A DNA stretch of 54,949 bases from Eubacteriales bacterium. Its GTDB lineage: Bacteria > Bacillota > Clostridia > Oscillospirales > CAG-272. Below are positions 1,736-43,885 of the stretch, piece by piece (position 1 is the first letter of the stretch; each line of letters begins with the position of its first letter). The position numbers were made by a program, and so were the translations under genes. The notes beneath the pieces are model-generated. The model did no database searches and was not told the DNA's origin. It saw only the letters and a list, made by a program, of their open reading frames with translations. The stretch is from positions 1 to 54,949 of the forward strand of contig JAZLDE010000106.1 of NCBI GenBank assembly GCA_045614625.1, given 5' to 3'.

Positions 1736-1772
1736 AGTAATCTCCTTATTTGGGATTTTTGCTGGATTTTTC

Positions 1773-2397
1773 AGCAACTACTTCTACGGACGCTCACACT
1801 GCACTTCGTGCGCGCTCGCGGTTTGTACTTTATGCCACTTCTTGGCACGCCCCAAGAAGTGGCGGAAGAAGGGCGCCAAGACGTTCCCTCTTGGATCTCC
1901 CTTATCTGTGCCGCTCTTCAAAGAGGGTTTGGGAGAACATATTTCGGCTTGCGCCGAAACGAGGCGAGTTTTATTCGCCCGTTAAACACGGGCGTTGCGC
2001 AGAAGCGCAAGCATAAAACTCCAAGACATAGCGTTTTTAAATGCTTTGCTCGCCATATAGCCACCACGAGCGGCAGATATGGAAAGCAAAAGTTGTTGCT
2101 TTCTTGTAGGGACGGGCGTCCTCGACCGTCCGAAAAAAGCAATTCTAACTTTGTGGAGCGTAATGGGTAGGGGAACGGAGTAAATCTGCGGAGCAGATTT
2201 ATGCCGAGCGTAAGCGAGGAGAGGGCCCCATGAGCTCGCGGGAGCTATTGCTTGGGCAGAGGCACGCCCTTCCCCACACGGACTTAGGAGAATTCTTCCC
2301 GTCCGTGCTCCTGTTTCTTTTCGGGAAAGTTCTTGGGGGGTGCGGGGGACTTCTTTCAAGAAGTCCCCCGCGCGTCCTCTCGTCCTCTCGTCCCCTC
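1773..2397. repeat. mosaic hairpin-rich intergenic repeat, locus A (between aroF and pheA)
   Basis: It shares blocks with loci B-E: head CTTCTACGGACGCTCACACTG at 1781, perfect hairpin 1834-1863, CCAAGACGTTCCCTCTTGGATCTCCC at 1876, GCCACCACGAGCGGCAG at 2060, GTAGGGACGGGCGTCC hairpin at 2106-2139, and hairpin GCGGGGGACTTCTTTCAAGAAGTCCCCCGC at 2341-2370. The track ORFs here are frame-broken between copies. Confidence 0.8.
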
Positions 2398-9550: not shown

Positions 9551-9599
9551 GATGGTCTCCTCGGTATGATTTTCTGCTTTTATTATACCGCGTGGAGGG

Positions 9600-10745
9600 A
9601 GGTTTGTAAAGGGGGAGAGGGGGGATTGGCTGAAATTTCAAGCTCCTTCTCCTTTTGACGCTCATACTGCGTGACTGCGTCACGCGCTGAGCTGTTCCGG
9701 TTTTCAATGCCGCTTCTTGGCACGCCCCAAGAAGCGGCGGAAGAAACGCGCCAAGACGTTCCCTCTTGGATCTCCCCTTTCGTGCCGCTCTTCAAAGAGA
9801 ACAGCGGAGAAAGACATCTACGCTCTTTCTACATCTCTCGCCACGCAGCCACCACGAGCGGCAGGCGAAGAAAGCAAAAGGCCTTGCGGGGTGCCAAGGG
9901 GTATTAGACCCCTTGGTTCGGTTCTTGGCTACTTCTTGGGGAATGCCAAGAAGTAGCATAAAATACTATCACCGAGCGCCCATTTCGCCAAGGCGAAATA
10001 CAGAAGTTTTGTTCGTCCGCTAAGCGCGGGCGTCATGCAAGCATGAACACAAAACTTCGCGCGCAGCAGGGCGAGGCTGTAGGAGAAGTCTTTGACTTTT
10101 CAAACTGCTTCTCCTTTTGACGCTCATACTGCGTGACTGCGTCACGCGCTGAGCTGTTTGATTTTGATGTTCATTCTTTGGCACGCGCCAAAGAATGAAC
10201 CAAGAAAGCGCGCCAAGGGGTCTAATACCCCTTGGATTCCCGCAATGCGAAAAGGTCGTTACGCTGTCGCTCCACTCATCTTTTCGCAAAAGATAGCATC
10301 TTCAGCGTTTGTGTTTGCAAGTTAAAGAAACTTGCAAACACGAAAGGCGCACGCAAGTGAAATAGCAAAAGCTTTTACTGTTTGTTACGCAACCTATGAA
10401 AACTAAATTTTATACAAAAACGATTTTGCCTCCTCTACCCGCCGCTCGTGGTAGCTATGTGACGAGAGTTGCAGAAAACGTTCTGATGTCTTTCTCGTCC
10501 TGCTTTTTGAAGAGCGACACGGAAAGGGAGGCTCGGAGGGAACGTCCGAGCTGGCAATGTTTGCGCCCGCGCGAAGCGCGATGTTCGCGTTCAGCGAACA
10601 AGCAAACTTGCGATTTCGGCTTGCCGAAATCTGTTTTCTTTCGTCCTTTCTTTGTTCAGCGACAAAGAAAGGACATATAATACCTGCACAGCGCACGCGC
10701 AAAACTGTGTGCGCGTCCGTAGAAGCAGTTGTAAAAAACAAAGCT
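9600..10745. repeat. mosaic hairpin-rich intergenic repeat, locus B (three elements: two direct, one inverted)
   Basis: The three elements are B1 at about 9640-10090, B2 at about 10100-10400 and B3 at about 10400-10740 (inverted). Heads lie at 9646 and 10108, with a reverse-complement head at 10711-10725. Perfect hairpins lie at 9709-9738, 9928-9957, 10169-10200 and 10643-10674. See findings. Confidence 0.85.
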
Positions 10746-10790
10746 AGCCCCCTCCCCCACAAAAAAAGGACGCCTCCGCGCCCTTTTTTA

Positions 10791-17689: not shown

Positions 17690-17850
17690 GGACTCTCCTT
17701 TTTTTGTGAACCGACGTTCACATTGATCTGCCTTTAGTATACCACAAAACCACCCCAATGTCAATCCGTCGTAGGGAAGGGGCTTGCTCCTCCCGCTTTT
17801 TTGGGATCTCGCCTGTGCCTCGTAGGGACCGGCGTCCCCGACGGTCCGCT

Positions 17851-25758: not shown

Positions 25759-25786
25759 AGGGAGCTTCTTTGGAAGCTCCCTTTTT
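25759..25786 (+). terminator. intrinsic terminator of the two-component operon
   Basis: AGGGAGCTTCTTTGGAAGCTCCCTTTTT. Confidence 0.75.
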
Positions 25787-25789
25787 GTT

Positions 25790-26200
25790 TGGCTGAACTT
25801 CAAACCACTTCTCCTTTTGACGCTCACCCTGTGCCTGCGGCAGCCTTTGGAAACTGCTCTTGTGCCGCGCTTCAAAGCAGGCTGAGGAGAAAGACATCTT
25901 TGATTTAATGTATCTCTCGCTGCTTTGCCACCACGCGCGGCAGACGAAGATAACAACAGAGTTTTGCTTGATTTCCCCTCTTGAGCGTGCGCTTATGCGC
26001 CAAGAGGGAGGATTTTGGCAAAACAAAAAGCCCCGGCGGCTCTTGAAAAGCCGTCGGGAGGTAGGGGGTTCCAAGGGGGAACGCCTTGGTGTCCTTTCTT
26101 CGCCTATTCTTTGCGACAAGGCAAAGAATAGGCATACAGAGCACACCGAGCGCGCCTCAGCTCGACAGAGTCGAGGTGGGCTGGGCGAGACTGTAGAAAC
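25790..26200. repeat. mosaic hairpin-rich intergenic repeat, locus C
   Basis: Head CTTCTCCTTTTGACGCTCACC at 25808, GCCACCACGCGCGGCAG at 25927, and perfect hairpin 26102-26133 (its stem is identical to that of 43700-43731). Confidence 0.75.
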
Positions 26201-35658: not shown

Positions 35659-35687
35659 ATTATATCATTTTTCCTTTGCTTTGTCAA
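35659..35687 (-). promoter_or_regulatory. consensus promoter of the str operon
   Basis: The minus strand reads TTGACA (35682-35687), a 17-nt spacer, then TATAAT (35659-35664). Confidence 0.7.
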
Positions 35688-35789
35688 GGGAAACTTAAAT
35701 TTCTACGTTTTACACAAATGGAGAAGTTTTACATAAAATTATCGTCAGGTTTTGGACAGAATATACAAAAGAAAGAGGAAAAGTTCAGC

Positions 35790-36235
35790 TAAAGTTCCTG
35801 CTGTTTCTTCTTTTGACGATCATACTGCCTTGCGCGTTAAAAAGAATAATTGTAACGGTTTCGCTGAACGCTGTGCAACTTCTCCTTGGGCCTCGCACAG
35901 CTTCGCGCGCTCGGTGTGCGGCCTTGGTGTTACTTCTTGTCTCGTGACAAGAAGTAACCAAGAAACACGCCAAGACGTTCCCTCTTGGATCTCCCTGCGA
36001 TTGCCGCTCTTCAAGGCAAATCAAGAGATAGACATAACCGTCTTTTGTGTCGTGCTTCAAGGTAGCCACCACGAGCGGCAGATATGGGAAGCGAAAAGTC
36101 TTGCGGGGTTCCAAGGGGTATTAGGCCCCTTGGTTCGTTTCTTGGCTACTTCTTGGGGAATACCAAGAAGTAGCATAAAATGCTTTTACCGAGCGCGCGA
36201 AGCTGGGCGAGGCTGTAGGAGAAGAAGCAAAAATT
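35790..36235. repeat. mosaic hairpin-rich intergenic repeat, locus D
   Basis: Head at 35807, perfect hairpins at 35929-35958 and 36145-36174, CCAAGACGTTCCCTCTTGG at 35970, and GCCACCACGAGCGGCAG at 36065. A 37-nt long-range inverted repeat pairs 35879-35915 with 36188-36224. Confidence 0.85.
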
Positions 36236-36249
36236 TCAGTTGCCTTTTT

Positions 36250-36560
36250 TCGTAGGGCTTCTCATTCCCCTACAGTGCCAAAACGAAAAGGCAATCACTT
36301 TCGTGATTGTTTCCTATGGCAATATTCCGTTTCCTACAGAAACGGAATATTGGGTGCGGCGTAACGGATCTACAAAATCAATACCTATTTCAAACGCCGC
36401 GTGGATTCGAACCCAGACCTCACGTCGCACGCGCCGTGAGCTCCAAAAGAATCCCTCGCGGGCTCAACACCCGCGCCTTGCAAGCAAGGACGGGATTCTT
36501 TCGTAGGGGTTCTCATTCCCCTGCTGGACCAAAACAAAAAGGCAATCACTTTCGTGATTG
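36250..36560 (-). repeat. 251-nt-period direct duplication containing a decayed tRNA-Arg 3' half and a three-way-junction module
   Basis: A roughly 60-nt direct repeat TCGTAGGG.TTCTCATTCCCCT...AAAAGGCAATCACTTTCGTGATTG occurs at 36250-36309 and 36501-60. The tRNA-like piece is at 36351-36440 (TGGGTGCGGCGTAACGGATC, GTGGATTCGAACCCAGACC). A 14-bp hairpin is at 36318-36353, and the module is at 36445-36502. Confidence 0.7.
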
Positions 36561-36571
36561 CCTTTTTGTTT

Positions 36572-36648
36572 TGGTGCGGCGTAAGGGATTCGAACCCCCG
36601 ACCTTTTGGTTCGTAGCCAAACACTCTATCCAGCTGAGCTAACGCCAC
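36572..36648 (-). tRNA. tRNA-Arg (ACG)
   Basis: The minus strand reads GTGGCGTTAGCTCAGCTGGATAGAGTGTTTGGCTACGAACCAAAAGGTCGGGGGTTCGAATCCCTTACGCCGCACCA. Confidence 0.9.
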
Positions 36649-36705: not shown

Positions 36706-36795
36706 GTGGTTTTTGAAAAATTTTTATTTTTTCTTCAAAATAGCGGTTTTGAGAGTGTGGGGGAGCTTCTTTTTAGAAGTTCCCCCACGCGTTTT

Positions 36796-42628: not shown

Positions 42629-42789
42629 AGGATTGCCTCTTTCTTTTTTTGTTGATTTTTTCGCATCGCACAGATGCGGTTGCAGCTGAAAACATTATAT
42701 CATATTTATATATAGTGTGGTTGAACTTTTTTTAGATATTTACAAATAAGATACAACTTGTGCAGGATGAACAAAAAGCGGGACAGCTG

Positions 42790-43800
42790 TATTTTTTGCA
42801 ACTACTCCTTGGGCCTCGCCCAGCTGCGCGCGCTCGGTGTACCGGCGTTTTGTGTTACTTCTTGCCGCGCGGCAAGAAGTAACCAAGAAACGCGCCCGGA
42901 CGTTCCCTCCGGGCCCTCCCTGCGATTGCCGCGCTACATAGAGCAACAAGAGAGATCACATATTACACTTAAATGCTGTGCTTCAAGTGTTGCCACCACG
43001 CGCGGCAGGCGAAGAAAGCGAGAGTGTTTTTGTTTAAATTTAGTTGGGCTGGGGTGCGTTGCAGATGGCAAAAGCTTTTGCCGTTTTGCTTACGTGCGAC
43101 TTCCGTGTTTGCTGCAATGTTTGCGCCCGCGCTTGCGCGATGTTCGCGTTTAGCGAACAAGCAAACTTGCGATTTCGGCTTGCCGAAATCTATTTTCTTT
43201 AACTTGCAAACGCAAAAGCTGAAGATGTAAACCTTCGCGCAAACATGAGCGGAGTGACAACGCAGCGACGTTTGCGCGTTGCGGGTATCCAAAGGGCATT
43301 AGGCCCTTTGGTTCCTTTTCTTTCGCCATTTCTTTGTGGAACGACAAAGAAATGGCATTCGTGCCGTACAGCGCGGCGCGTCAGCTGTACGCGCGTCCGT
43401 AAGAGAAGTCGTGGAATTTTTGGTTTTTCTCATCTCCTCCGCCTTGCAACCACGCGCGGCAGGCGAAGGAAGCAAAAGCATTTTTGTAAAAAAGTTAGTT
43501 GAACCGGGGTGCGTCGCAGATGGCAAAAACTTTTGCTGTGTCGCTTGCGTGCGACTTTTGTGTTTGCAAGTTTATTTAACTTGCAAACGCAAAGGCTGAA
43601 GATGCATCTTTTCGCGAAAAAATGAGTGGAGCGATAGCGAAACGACTTTTCGCGCTCGGGGGTCCCAAGGGGTATTAGACCCCTTGGTGCCTTTTCTTCG
43701 CCTATTCTTTGCGGCAAGGCAAAGAATAGGCACAAATCCGTACAGCGCACGCGCGGAGCTGTGTGCGCGTAAAGAGAAGAAGTCGTTTAAAAGCCAGCTA
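42790..43800. repeat. mosaic hairpin-rich intergenic repeat, locus E (about 1 kb, including a tandem pair of units)
   Basis: Left arm at 42802-42838 and perfect hairpins at 42854-42883, 43325-43356 and 43700-43731. Tandem units run 42992-43447 and 43448-43800. The 77-nt block at 43114-43190 is about 95% identical to 10554-10631. Confidence 0.85.
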
Positions 43801-43885
43801 TCTCTCACACAAAAAGAGATCCCCCGATGTTCATCGGGGGACCCCTGCCCTTGCGGGCTTATTCATCTTTTGCTTGTTCCGTCAA

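What the first reader, a model, noticed from the sequence alone, without database searches (positions are those of the whole stretch)
9709..10674. Eleven perfect 11-13 bp hairpins with a TTCTT(T)G...C(A)AAGAA core whose variable positions always co-vary
The hairpins are:
- 1834-1863 GCCACTTCTTGG/CCAAGAAGTGGC
- 9709-9738 GCCGCTTCTTGG/CCAAGAAGCGGC
- 9928-9957 and 36145-36174 GCTACTTCTTGG/CCAAGAAGTAGC
- 10169-10200 GTTCATTCTTTGG/CCAAAGAATGAAC
- 10643-10674 GTCCTTTCTTTG/CAAAGAAAGGAC
- 26102-26133 and 43700-43731 GCCTATTCTTTGC/GCAAAGAATAGGC
- 35929-35958 GTTACTTCTTG/CAAGAAGTAAC
- 42854-42883 GTTACTTCTTGCC/GGCAAGAAGTAAC
- 43325-43356 GCCATTTCTTTG/CAAAGAAATGGC

There are eight different stem sequences and not one mismatch. 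Every change at positions 2-5 of the 5' arm is compensated in the 3' arm. That pattern points to selection for, or copying of, a DNA or RNA stem-loop rather than drift. Gene-end hairpins at 2341-2370, 25759-25786 and 36757-36788 share the same CTTCTTT/AGAAG core. The motif may therefore double as a terminator or transcript-stabilising hairpin.
Basis: seen in the sequence. Interest (0 to 1): 0.65.

Follow-up and report, generated by a model that had tools for sequence, protein, structure and literature searches.

The report
Hairpin module of mosaic intergenic repeats
The eleven hairpins are copies of one conserved stem-loop that belongs to a roughly 100-copy, two-armed non-coding repeat filling the gaps between genes in a rumen/gut Oscillospiraceae bacterium; its stem stays paired through compensating changes that read as an RNA (one-strand) signature, and the same hairpin turns up in distant Proteobacteria.

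Summary
All 11 hairpins are where stated. The genome holds about 190 of them: 72% are perfect, and nearly all the rest have only G·T wobbles.

They are not free-standing. Each is module "B" of an oriented unit: hairpin A, TTTCTTG, B, hairpin C, AGGAGAAG…AAATTTAG. Units usually sit as divergent pairs around a conserved core. Such elements are 0.45-0.8 kb, strictly intergenic, and enriched behind gene ends.

Covariation is real, at 6-7 stem positions, in six species. It arises partly by copying: about 35 hairpin "alleles" are shared between species and swapped between loci.

Several features point to one functional strand, the one read outward from the element centre:
- wobbles are 51 G·T against 1 A·C;
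- GGA occurs only in outward-strand loops;
- hairpin A is followed by a U-tract;
- lone units point the same way as transcription.

My best reading is a REP/BIME-like mosaic repeat that acts at RNA level as a transcript-end module. It resembles the recently described divergent doublets of extended TwoAYGGAY elements. The mobilising enzyme is unknown, and the RAYT link failed its test.

I rate it a new variant of a known kind, of moderate interest.

The parts
1766..2104 (-). Element E1. It has the outer end, hairpin C, hairpin B (1834-1863, read outward on the minus strand), A1 hairpin CCAAGACGTTCCCTCTTGG and the core up to GCCACCACGAGCGGCAG. The second arm is replaced after TTTCTTG by a GTAG-type REP-like hairpin (2105-2133).
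9631..9985 (.). Element E2, a divergent doublet of the short class. B is at 9709-9738 (outward = minus strand, A1 arm) and at 9928-9957 (outward = plus strand, A2 arm). The core is at 9785-9880.
10093..10745 (.). Element E3, a divergent doublet of a long class. B is at 10169-10200 (minus) and at 10643-10674 (plus), with extra internal hairpin modules. It lies between a canonical terminator (about 10747-10790) and the promoter at 9582-9610.
25790..26200 (+). Element E4. The left arm has lost B (outer end at 25796-25831, core at 25925-25950). The right arm keeps an A1-type hairpin, TTTCTTC and B at 26102-26133, then C.
35789..36235 (.). Element E5, a divergent doublet upstream of the rpsL promoter and downstream of tRNA-Arg. 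B is at 35929-35958 (minus, A1 arm) and at 36145-36174 (plus, A2 arm). It is orthologous to copies in four related species.
42780..43795 (.). Array E6. A doublet has B at 42854-42883 (minus) and at 43325-43356 (plus). An extra unit has B at 43700-43731 (plus). The array lies behind the canonical terminator of the 2183-aa surface-protein gene.
36111..36143 (+). Example of hairpin A2 (CCAAGGGGTATTAGGCCCCTTGG) followed by the U-rich linker TTCGTTTCTTG that leads into B. On the outward strand this fits the intrinsic-terminator pattern.
2341..2370 (-). Gene-end hairpin GGGGGACTTCTTTCAAGAAGTCCCCC. It belongs to a separate family of at least 17 copies and is not part of the element.

Best explanation
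**What it is.** The TTCTT(T)G/C(A)AAGAA hairpin ('B') is the most conserved module of a clade-specific, REP/BIME-like mosaic intergenic repeat.

**The unit.** Reading outward from the element centre, the working unit is:
- hairpin A, with loop GGGAACG or UAUUAG;
- a U-rich linker, UUUCUUG;
- hairpin B, a 12-14 bp stem with an invariant UUCUU·AAGAA core;
- an A-rich linker;
- the GC-rich hairpin C;
- the end motif AGGAGAAG…AAAUUUAG.

Two such units normally lie back to back (divergent) around a conserved core, so the element looks the same from either side.

**How it works (inferred).** I infer that it acts as RNA. A transcript entering from either flank runs through the element. In the far arm it meets hairpin A plus the U-tract, which is terminator-like. 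Directly after that comes the very stable B hairpin, which I propose is a 3'-end protecting and/or protein-binding stem-loop with purine-rich, often GGA-containing loops. Selection on that single-stranded form keeps the stem paired while letting its outer and inner base pairs change.

**How copies spread.** Copies multiply and are homogenised at DNA level by recombination or gene conversion among elements, and by an unidentified mobilisation mechanism. This moves whole hairpin 'alleles' (both arms together) between loci and adds to the perfection of pairing.

**Shown:** the anatomy, copy number, covariation, strand asymmetries, genomic context, phylogenetic distribution and allele swapping.

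**Inferred:** the RNA-level role, termination or stabilisation, and the mode of spread.
For: **Anatomy and doublets.**
- Alignments of 12 full elements and 177 half-units define the modules.
- 65 of 114 repeat regions are '-+' divergent pairs, with discrete spacings of about 220, 314, 394 and 408 nt.
- 39 of the typed doublets pair an A1 arm with an A2 arm.

**Covariation.** The evidence is the pair table and the formal counts in G000 and in five other species.

**One-strand signature.** Orientation was set from the flank only, independently of the mismatches.
- B mismatches are 51 G·T/T·G against 1 C·A.
- Hairpin A shows 8 G·T against 0 A·C.
- The outward strand folds 5 kcal/mol better, and is the more stable strand in 149 of 177 units.
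- B loops hold GGA in 67 of 188 copies on the outward strand and in 0 of 188 on the other.

**Transcript-end context.**
- 110 of 114 regions are intergenic.
- Flanking-gene arrangements are tandem 54, convergent 21 and divergent 5, against a background of 872, 186 and 194.
- Elements abut stop codons.
- Hairpin A plus a T-tract fits an intrinsic-terminator rule in 126 of 178 units on the outward strand.
- Lone units in tandem gene contexts point with transcription in 13 of 15 cases, p = 0.007.
- Full doublets show no orientation bias (14 against 8), as expected for a two-fold symmetric device.

**Occupancy and swapping.** All 9 orthologous spacers examined are occupied in three other species. 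Their module content differs, and B alleles are exchanged while always staying perfectly paired.

**Parallel in the literature.** Extended TwoAYGGAY elements of Pseudomonadota are multi-copy and 68% are divergent doublets about 249 bp apart. They are associated with REP arrays and described as 'mobile-element-like' (bioRxiv 10.64898/2026.09.22.753630). The exact TTCTTG-GTTACTTCTTG…CAAGAAGTAAC hairpin lies 35-110 nt 3' of Rfam TwoAYGGAY matches, on the same strand, in Gilvimarinus.
Against: - There is no direct transcript evidence. Only unstranded assembled contigs of metatranscriptomes were available. One run shows element k-mers at depth 38-336 against 0-6 in the flanks, but related species or DNA carry-over could explain that.
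- B itself has no U-tract.
- Some elements sit behind a canonical terminator and in front of the next promoter, where no terminator is needed.
- Hairpin C shows the opposite wobble bias: 11 C·A/A·C against 2 G·T on the outward strand.
- 42 of the 51 wobbles are one recurrent G·T at stem position 5, which could descend from a single ancestral allele.
- Gene calls used for the context statistics are my own rough ORF model.
- No mobilising enzyme, target-site duplication or clean empty site was found.
Confidence: 0.5

Rival explanations
1. REP/REPIN-type single-stranded-DNA element. On this reading B is the hairpin recognised by an HUH (Y1, RAYT-like) transposase on one DNA strand, the doublet is the mobile REPIN-like unit, and pairing is kept because only foldable copies propagate.
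For: - Copy number, doublets of inverted units and a strand-specific hairpin with a conserved flanking hexamer all fit.
- G000 encodes at least four RAYT-like (COG1943, HUH-motif) genes that the Pfam model missed.
- A GTAG-type REP-like hairpin replaces B directly after TTTCTTG at two loci, so the two kinds of hairpin share one mosaic system.
- The same B hairpin occurs in distant phyla, including four identical copies in one Cupriavidus genome.
Against: - RAYT-like genes are not flanked by B within 1.5 kb in G000, G012 or G008. Their own REP is a different sequence that lies inside and around them.
- The distribution of these genes in the genus does not track the elements. G004, G005 and G006 have the genes without elements; G003 has 31 or more elements and only a stop-interrupted copy.
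- B has no 5' GTAG.
- All 9 orthologous sites are occupied in four species, which argues against frequent recent transposition.
Confidence: 0.2
2. Selfish or neutral palindromic DNA with no RNA role. Perfect arms are produced by DNA-level processes: quasi-palindrome correction by template switching, and gene conversion between copies. The elements persist only where insertions are harmless.
For: - Whole hairpin alleles (stem plus loop) are swapped between orthologous loci and shared across species.
- Modules are shuffled, inverted and deleted, and G003 has about 110-nt 'mini' forms.
- Location between terminator and promoter is what tolerated insertions look like.
- Elements flank a 5-kb gene indel.
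Against: - Template-switch correction should erase the G·T at position 5. Instead it persists in 42 copies with diverged inner stems and loops, and in other species.
- A symmetric DNA process does not predict 51 G·T against 1 A·C, GGA in loops on one strand only, or the co-orientation of lone units with transcription.
Confidence: 0.17
3. Multi-copy small-RNA or protein-sponge genes related to TwoAYGGAY. Each unit is transcribed outward from a promoter in the core and titrates a GGA-binding regulator of the CsrA/Rsm type.
For: - The units form divergent doublets.
- GGA lies in the loops of B (67 of 188) and of A1 (AGGGAAC) on the outward strand only.
- The B hairpin is adjacent to TwoAYGGAY RNAs in Gammaproteobacteria.
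- The preprint proposes a Csr/Rsm sponge role for TwoAYGGAY.
Against: - No RF01731 match in G000, even at E <= 1.
- No CsrA homologue by tblastn in this MAG, which is 87% complete.
- No sigma-70-like promoter was found in the cores. The only strong promoters are those of flanking genes.
- Only 2-3 of 17 TwoAYGGAY loci examined carry a B-like hairpin.
Confidence: 0.08
4. Double-stranded operator or iteron. On this reading a dimeric DNA-binding protein recognises the TTCTTG hexamers (a direct repeat at 11-bp spacing plus an inverted copy).
For: - The hexamer is invariant and occurs three times per site with helical-turn spacing.
Against: - Binding to duplex DNA does not require the variable outer and inner positions to covary.
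- It also does not explain strand-specific wobbles.
Confidence: 0.05

Closest known systems
Extended TwoAYGGAY elements of Pseudomonadota (Rfam RF01731; Weinberg et al. 2010, PMC2864571; Minerva preprint, bioRxiv 10.64898/2026.09.22.753630)
   Same: - Multi-copy, intergenic, multi-hairpin units.
- Enriched as divergent doublets a few hundred bp apart, with flanking repeats and highly variable copy number.
- GGA in hairpin loops.
- The very hairpin studied here (TTCTTG-GTTACTTCTTG…CAAGAAGTAAC) lies just 3' of TwoAYGGAY matches, on the same strand, in Gilvimarinus.
   Different: - The Oscillospiraceae genome gives no match to the RF01731 model.
- The two AYGGAY hairpins on a basal stem are absent.
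- The B hairpin accompanies only a minority of TwoAYGGAY copies in the proteobacterial genome examined.
- I could not see the preprint's extended model, so I do not know whether it contains B.
REP / BIME / REPIN elements with RAYT transposases (Nunvar et al. 2010, PMC2817692; REPIN concept recalled from Bertels & Rainey 2011, not read here)
   Same: - About 100-200 copies, strictly extragenic, at gene ends.
- Imperfect palindromes that keep pairing through compensatory change.
- Inverted doublets and mosaic combination with other motifs.
- Known secondary roles as mRNA stabilisers or terminators.
   Different: - Units are much longer: three hairpins plus a core, 0.45-0.8 kb per element.
- There is no 5' GTAG.
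- The genome's RAYT-like genes are associated with a different REP and are not flanked by B.
BOX elements of Streptococcus pneumoniae; ERIC, Correia and YPAL/RU-2 type MITE-like repeats
   Same: - Modular (boxA-B-C-like) non-coding repeats.
- Terminal inverted repeats.
- Strong predicted RNA structure.
- No encoded transposase.
- Effects on neighbouring transcripts.
   Different: - No sequence similarity.
- No target-site duplication was recognised here.
- The arms are built of independently covarying local hairpins rather than one long foldback.

Membership tests
REP/RAYT system | A RAYT (Y1 HUH transposase) gene is present and flanked by its cognate REPs. | tested here: not met
   RAYT-like genes exist, but no B hairpin lies within 1.5 kb of them in G000, G012 or G008. 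They carry a different GTAG-REP-like motif.
REP/RAYT system | A conserved GTAG tetranucleotide lies 5' of the palindrome. | tested here: not met
   The 5' flank of B is TTTCTTG or TTTCTTC in 188 of 188 oriented copies. This is true by construction of the orientation rule, but no GTAG is seen.
REP/RAYT system | The phyletic distribution of the repeat tracks that of the RAYT gene. | tested here: not met
   Elements occur in G000, G002, G003, G008, G011 and G012. RAYT-like genes also occur in the element-free G004, G005 and G006, none was found in G002, and in G003 the only copy is interrupted.
REP/BIME (as a kind of repeat) | High-copy, extragenic, palindromic units in alternating orientation combined into mosaics. 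| tested here: met
   There are 188 units in 114 intergenic regions. 65 are divergent doublets, and A modules and internal cassettes are interchangeable.
TwoAYGGAY RNA (RF01731) | A match to the covariance model: two hairpins with AYGGAY loops on a basal stem. | tested here: not met
   There is no hit in the window at E <= 5 or in the whole genome at E <= 1. The model does detect copies next to B hairpins in Gilvimarinus.
TwoAYGGAY-type repeat architecture | Multi-copy units enriched as divergent doublets a few hundred bp apart. | tested here: met
   65 of 70 multi-unit regions are '-+' (outward-facing) pairs, spaced 216-574 nt. The preprint reports 68% divergent doublets with a median spacing of 249 bp.
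MITE (transposase-mobilised miniature element) | Terminal inverted repeats plus a target-site duplication, and an autonomous parent with the same ends. | tested here: inconclusive
   TIR-like ends GCTRAATTT…CTTCTCCT / AGGAGAAG…AAATTTAGC are present. No TSD is recognisable. No longer element with these ends was seen, and the 5-kb insert in G012 holds ABC transporter genes, not a transposase.
Intrinsic (Rho-independent) terminator | A GC-rich hairpin immediately followed by a U-tract on the transcribed strand. | tested here: inconclusive
   B is followed by AUCAAA or CAAGAAA, so it fails. The neighbouring hairpin A passes a standard rule in 126 of 178 units on the outward strand. No 3'-end mapping data were available.

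The most novel reading that the evidence does not exclude
The hexamer-flanked hairpin TTCTTG-G-YYAY-TTCTT(T)G…C(A)AAGAA-RTRR-C may be a portable recognition module conserved from Oscillospiraceae to Beta- and Gammaproteobacteria. It would be read on one strand by a still unidentified, widely distributed factor: an RNA-binding or processing protein, or a strand-specific nuclease or recombinase. That factor would handle or spread cassettes of structured non-coding sequence, TwoAYGGAY RNAs among them. The Oscillospiraceae clade would then be the case where this module has expanded to about 200 copies, which would make the factor identifiable by pull-down.
Probability: 0.2. Interest if true: 0.75.

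Novelty: new variant of a known kind. Interest (0 to 1): 0.5.

Why it matters
- **An unusually clean test case.** Roughly 2% of this genome, and a large share of its long intergenic gaps (69 of 189 gaps of 400 bp or more), consists of one family of structured repeats. Its central hairpin shows textbook covariation and a one-strand signature. That makes it well suited to asking what REP-, BIME- and TwoAYGGAY-like repeats actually do: transcript-end formation, RNA protection or protein docking.
- **A cross-phylum lead.** Finding the identical hairpin with its flanking hexamer in Proteobacteria, sometimes directly behind TwoAYGGAY RNAs, ties an orphan RNA family to a broader class of two-armed mosaic repeats. 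It also offers a short, testable bait for the missing trans-acting factor.
- **A practical consequence.** These repeats break MAG assemblies; many contigs here end in them. They also flank gene-content differences between species.

Tried and rejected
- **Rfam.** No family matched the elements, either at gathering thresholds over the whole window or at E <= 5 on two element arrays.
- **Pfam Y1_Tnp on the genome.** The search was negative but proved insensitive. tblastn with relatives' ORFs then found RAYT-like genes, which failed the association tests.
- **Empty sites.** I concatenated flank pairs of 9 elements and searched three relatives. Every site is occupied, so neither boundaries nor a TSD could be defined this way.
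- **Autonomous parent.** The one large insert found holds ABC transporter genes.
- **Mini-elements in G000.** A terminal-motif search was too unspecific and gave one clear case.
- **Metatranscriptomes.** Only unstranded Logan contigs were available, and multi-copy and cross-species mapping make the depths uninterpretable.
- **CsrA.** None found by tblastn.
- **Promoter in the core.** None passed the sigma-70 scan.
- **Viral contigs.** No exact match to the hairpin pattern.
- **Literature search by sequence strings.** It returned only unrelated primers.
- **Coding potential.** Rejected because hairpin lengths of 30 and 32 nt and variable loops break any reading frame.
- **Intramolecular triplex.** A triplex between the TTCTT flank and the stem was rejected because the register does not fit (my own reasoning).
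Full report
**1. The observation**

All eleven hairpins are present at the stated coordinates with the stated arms. The core pattern occurs 13 times in the window against 0.19 expected; two of those hits are unrelated.

Because the arms are perfect palindromes, their 5' arm reads the same on both strands. Orientation can therefore only come from loops and flanks.

I laid out the whole genome: 2.09 Mb, 187 contigs, 53% G+C, an 87%-complete MAG of a gut/rumen Clostridia bacterium. Its relatives are deposited as Oscillospiraceae bacterium SIG644 and SIG664, Clostridia bacterium RGIG5545, and two Eubacteriales MAGs.

- Genome-wide, 146 perfect hairpins of at least 10 bp have TTCTT in the 5' arm, with 43 distinct arms.
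- Ascertaining from one arm only, about 142 partners are perfect, about 66 have one mismatch and about 15-20 have two. An offset control gives none with fewer than two mismatches.
Pairing is nevertheless far better than drift allows.

**2. Anatomy**

The hairpin (B) never stands alone. Alignments of full elements and of 177 oriented half-units give a unit that reads, from the element centre outward:
- hairpin A;
- TTTCTTG;
- B;
- AT(C)AAA;
- the GC-rich hairpin C;
- CGTAGGAGAAGTTG…AAATTTAG(C).

Hairpin A comes mainly in two forms: A1 (CCAAGA-GGGAACG-TCTTGG and covarying variants) and A2 (CCAAGGGG-TATTAG-CCCCTTGG and variants).

Units and their arrangement:
- 188 units can be oriented from the flank alone, 95 on one strand and 93 on the other.
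- They lie in 114 regions, of which 65 are divergent ('-+') pairs.
- B-to-B spacings fall into discrete classes of about 220, 314, 394 and 408 nt, set by optional internal cassettes.
- Most doublets pair an A1 arm with an A2 arm around a conserved asymmetric core, TTGCCGCTCTTCAAAG…AGGAGAAAGACATAAA…GCCACCACGAGCGGCAG.
- Many contigs end inside these repeats.

In the window the elements occupy 1766-2104, 9631-9985, 10093-10745, 25790-26200, 35789-36235 and 42780-43795.

**3. Covariation, and copying versus compensation**

- In the oriented set, stem position 1 and the five core pairs are invariant. Positions 2, 3, 4, 5, 11, 12 and 13 each show two to four Watson-Crick pair types at high frequency.
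- The formal count on 40 diverse copies gives 99.8% paired cells against 82% in shuffles. It gives 95 double-change cells against 28, and a score of 0.467 against 0.127 (0 of 500 shuffles reach it); slid registers score 0.04-0.12.
- A covariance model built from these copies found more than 200 oriented copies in loci of five other species. The best 135 distinct ones give the same picture. That alignment is fitted to the model and so leans towards it.
- Copies are not recent duplicates. 181 of 188 differ when 8-nt flanks are included. One stem occurs with up to 10 loops.
- There are only about 35 perfect stem types. Comparison of orthologous spacers shows that whole B 'alleles' (stem plus loop) are shared between species and exchanged between loci. 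At one site G000 and G008 have GCCAT…, G012 has GTACT… and G003 has GTCCT…, each perfectly paired.
The alleles arose by compensated changes (at least 15 in the outer 5 bp by a minimum spanning tree). They are then propagated as units by DNA-level copying.

**4. A one-strand signature**

Orientation was assigned from the T-rich flank only, so the following asymmetries are independent of it.
- Of 56 stem mismatches, 51 are G·T or T·G on the outward-reading strand and one is C·A. 42 of them are a recurrent G·T at position 5, which persists in copies with different inner stems and loops and in other species.
- Hairpin A shows 8 G·T against 0 A·C. Hairpin C shows the reverse, 2 against 11.
- The outward strand folds on average 5 kcal/mol better, and is the more stable strand in 149 of 177 units. 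Single units have z-scores of about -4.3 to -4.9 on either strand.
- B loops contain GGA in 67 of 188 copies on the outward strand and never on the other.

A symmetric duplex-DNA role or cruciform does not predict these asymmetries. They point to RNA, or to single-stranded DNA of defined polarity.

**5. Context**

These statistics rest on my own rough gene model.
- 110 of 114 regions are intergenic.
- Flanking genes are tandem in 54, convergent in 21 and divergent in 5 regions, against 872, 186 and 194 among all spacers.
- 69 of the 189 spacers of 400 bp or more hold an element.
- In tandem contexts the element often starts right after the stop codon and ends 20-110 nt before the next start (example).
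- On the outward strand, hairpin A plus the linker TTCGTTTCTTG satisfies a standard intrinsic-terminator rule in 126 of 178 units. The inward strand has such a site (C plus a T-tract) in 35.
- Lone units in tandem contexts point with transcription in 13 of 15 cases, p = 0.007. Full doublets show no bias, 14 against 8.

This fits a device that presents the same far-arm structure to a transcript from either side.

Against a simple terminator role:
- several elements lie behind canonical terminators and ahead of strong promoters of the next gene;
- B itself has no U-tract.

**6. Distribution and dynamics**

- The family is present in six of thirteen genomes of the genus, the subclade with at least 95% rpsL identity. 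It is absent from the rest of the genus and from 28 other genera of the family and order.
- At nine spacers compared, all three related species also carry an element, but with different content. There are other A, B and C variants, extra cassettes, and in G003 three forms of about 110 nt consisting only of the outer ends and a C stem.
- At one locus G012 has two ABC-exporter genes between element arms where G000 has only the element.
- The elements are thus old residents that evolve by recombination, conversion, inversion and deletion. I found no clean empty site, no target-site duplication and no autonomous parent.

**7. Candidates for a partner enzyme**

- Pfam's Y1_Tnp model found nothing in G000.
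- ORFs from G011 and G012 led by tblastn to at least four RAYT-like HUH genes in G000.
- These genes are not flanked by B.
- Their distribution in the genus does not follow the elements.
- They are tied to a different, 13-copy GTAG-type REP-like hairpin, GTAG-GGACCGGCGTCCTCGACGGTCC. That hairpin even lies in frame inside them.
- At two loci, one at window 2105-2133, that REP follows TTTCTTG in the place of B. The two hairpins therefore share the mosaic, but the defining REP-RAYT criteria are not met for B.

**8. Relatives elsewhere**

- An exact-pattern scan of 185,579 species' genomes found the hairpin with its 5' hexamer in the five sister MAGs. Unexpectedly, it also found it in Cupriavidus (four identical copies in one genome), Gilvimarinus, Wenzhouxiangellaceae, Lysobacterales and Moraxellaceae. 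About 0.1 hits were expected by chance (my own estimate).
- There it reads GC-TTTCTTG-GTTACTTCTTG-loop-CAAGAAGTAAC-TCG, followed by a GC-rich hairpin. It lies in ordinary intergenic regions.
- In Gilvimarinus it lies 35-110 nt 3' of Rfam TwoAYGGAY matches on the same strand, which is the same polarity as 'outward' here. Only 2-3 of 17 TwoAYGGAY loci examined have it.
- A 2026 preprint reports that TwoAYGGAY RNAs of Pseudomonadota carry extra hairpins and reach 11-202 copies per genome. It also reports 68% divergent doublets at a median spacing of 249 bp and sites upstream of REP arrays. The authors suggest mobile-element-like expansion and a possible Csr/Rsm sponge role.
- G000 has no RF01731 match and no detectable CsrA.
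- Earlier notes of this scan describe similar two-armed, outward-reading mosaic repeats in other gut Clostridia and in Gammaproteobacteria. I used them only as leads.

**9. Verdict**

The finding is real and is more than a set of hairpins. It is the signature module of a two-armed mosaic intergenic repeat, with strong covariation and a one-strand (RNA-like) imprint.

The most likely reading (about 0.5) is a REP/BIME-like repeat that works at transcript ends and is propagated and homogenised at DNA level. The rivals are:
- an ssDNA, HUH-mobilised element (0.2);
- functionless palindromic DNA (0.17);
- sRNA or protein-sponge genes (0.08);
- a duplex operator (0.05).

It is a new variant of a known kind. 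The cross-phylum conservation of the hexamer-flanked hairpin is the part most worth following up.

Noticed in passing
window 2105-2133 and 17821-17849; genome contigs C99:205-783, C129/C38, C8, C1:591-1310: A 13-copy REP-like motif, tGTAG-GGACCGGCGTCCTCGACGGTCC, is present. At least four RAYT-like (COG1943, HUH-motif) genes were missed by Pfam's Y1_Tnp model. Two inverted copies of the REP lie in frame inside the RAYT-like genes. At window 2100 the REP follows TTTCTTG where hairpin B normally sits.
   Followed up: partly
window 2341-2370 (also about 17 other genome sites): A separate gene-end hairpin family, GAGG-GGRACTTCTTGAAAGAAGTYCC-CCTC, is usually followed by CCCTCAAGAACTTT and lacks a T-tract. 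It may be a non-canonical terminator or processing site. It shares only the ACTTCTT core with B.
   Followed up: partly
   Followed up: yes
window about 36250-36470 versus 36490-36648: Part of tRNA-Arg and its downstream hairpin (CGTAGGGGTTCTCATTCCCCT…GGCAATCACTTTCGTGATTG) is duplicated next to element E5. This looks like the scar of an integration or duplication at the tRNA gene.
   Followed up: no
G000 C124:7010-7567 versus L057 (G012:C10:20900-26500): Two ABC-exporter genes (681 and 626 aa) sit between element arms in G012. G000 has only the element at this locus, so the repeats flank a gene-content difference.
   Followed up: partly
L036, L037, L038 (G003:C57): Forms of about 110 nt, made of the outer ends and a C stem only, occupy spacers where G000, G012 and G008 have elements of 450-630 nt.
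   Followed up: partly
window 42810-43810 in RNA run X28: One metatranscriptome shows element sequences at word depth 38-336 while flanking genes are at 0-6. This could mean abundant element RNA or a more abundant related species.
   Followed up: partly
window 9582-9610 and 35659-35687 (minus strand): Near-consensus sigma-70 promoters (TTTACA-17-TATAAT and TTGACA-17-TATAAT with TG) lie immediately outside element ends, preceded by C-rich runs such as CCCCCCTCTCCCCC.
   Followed up: no
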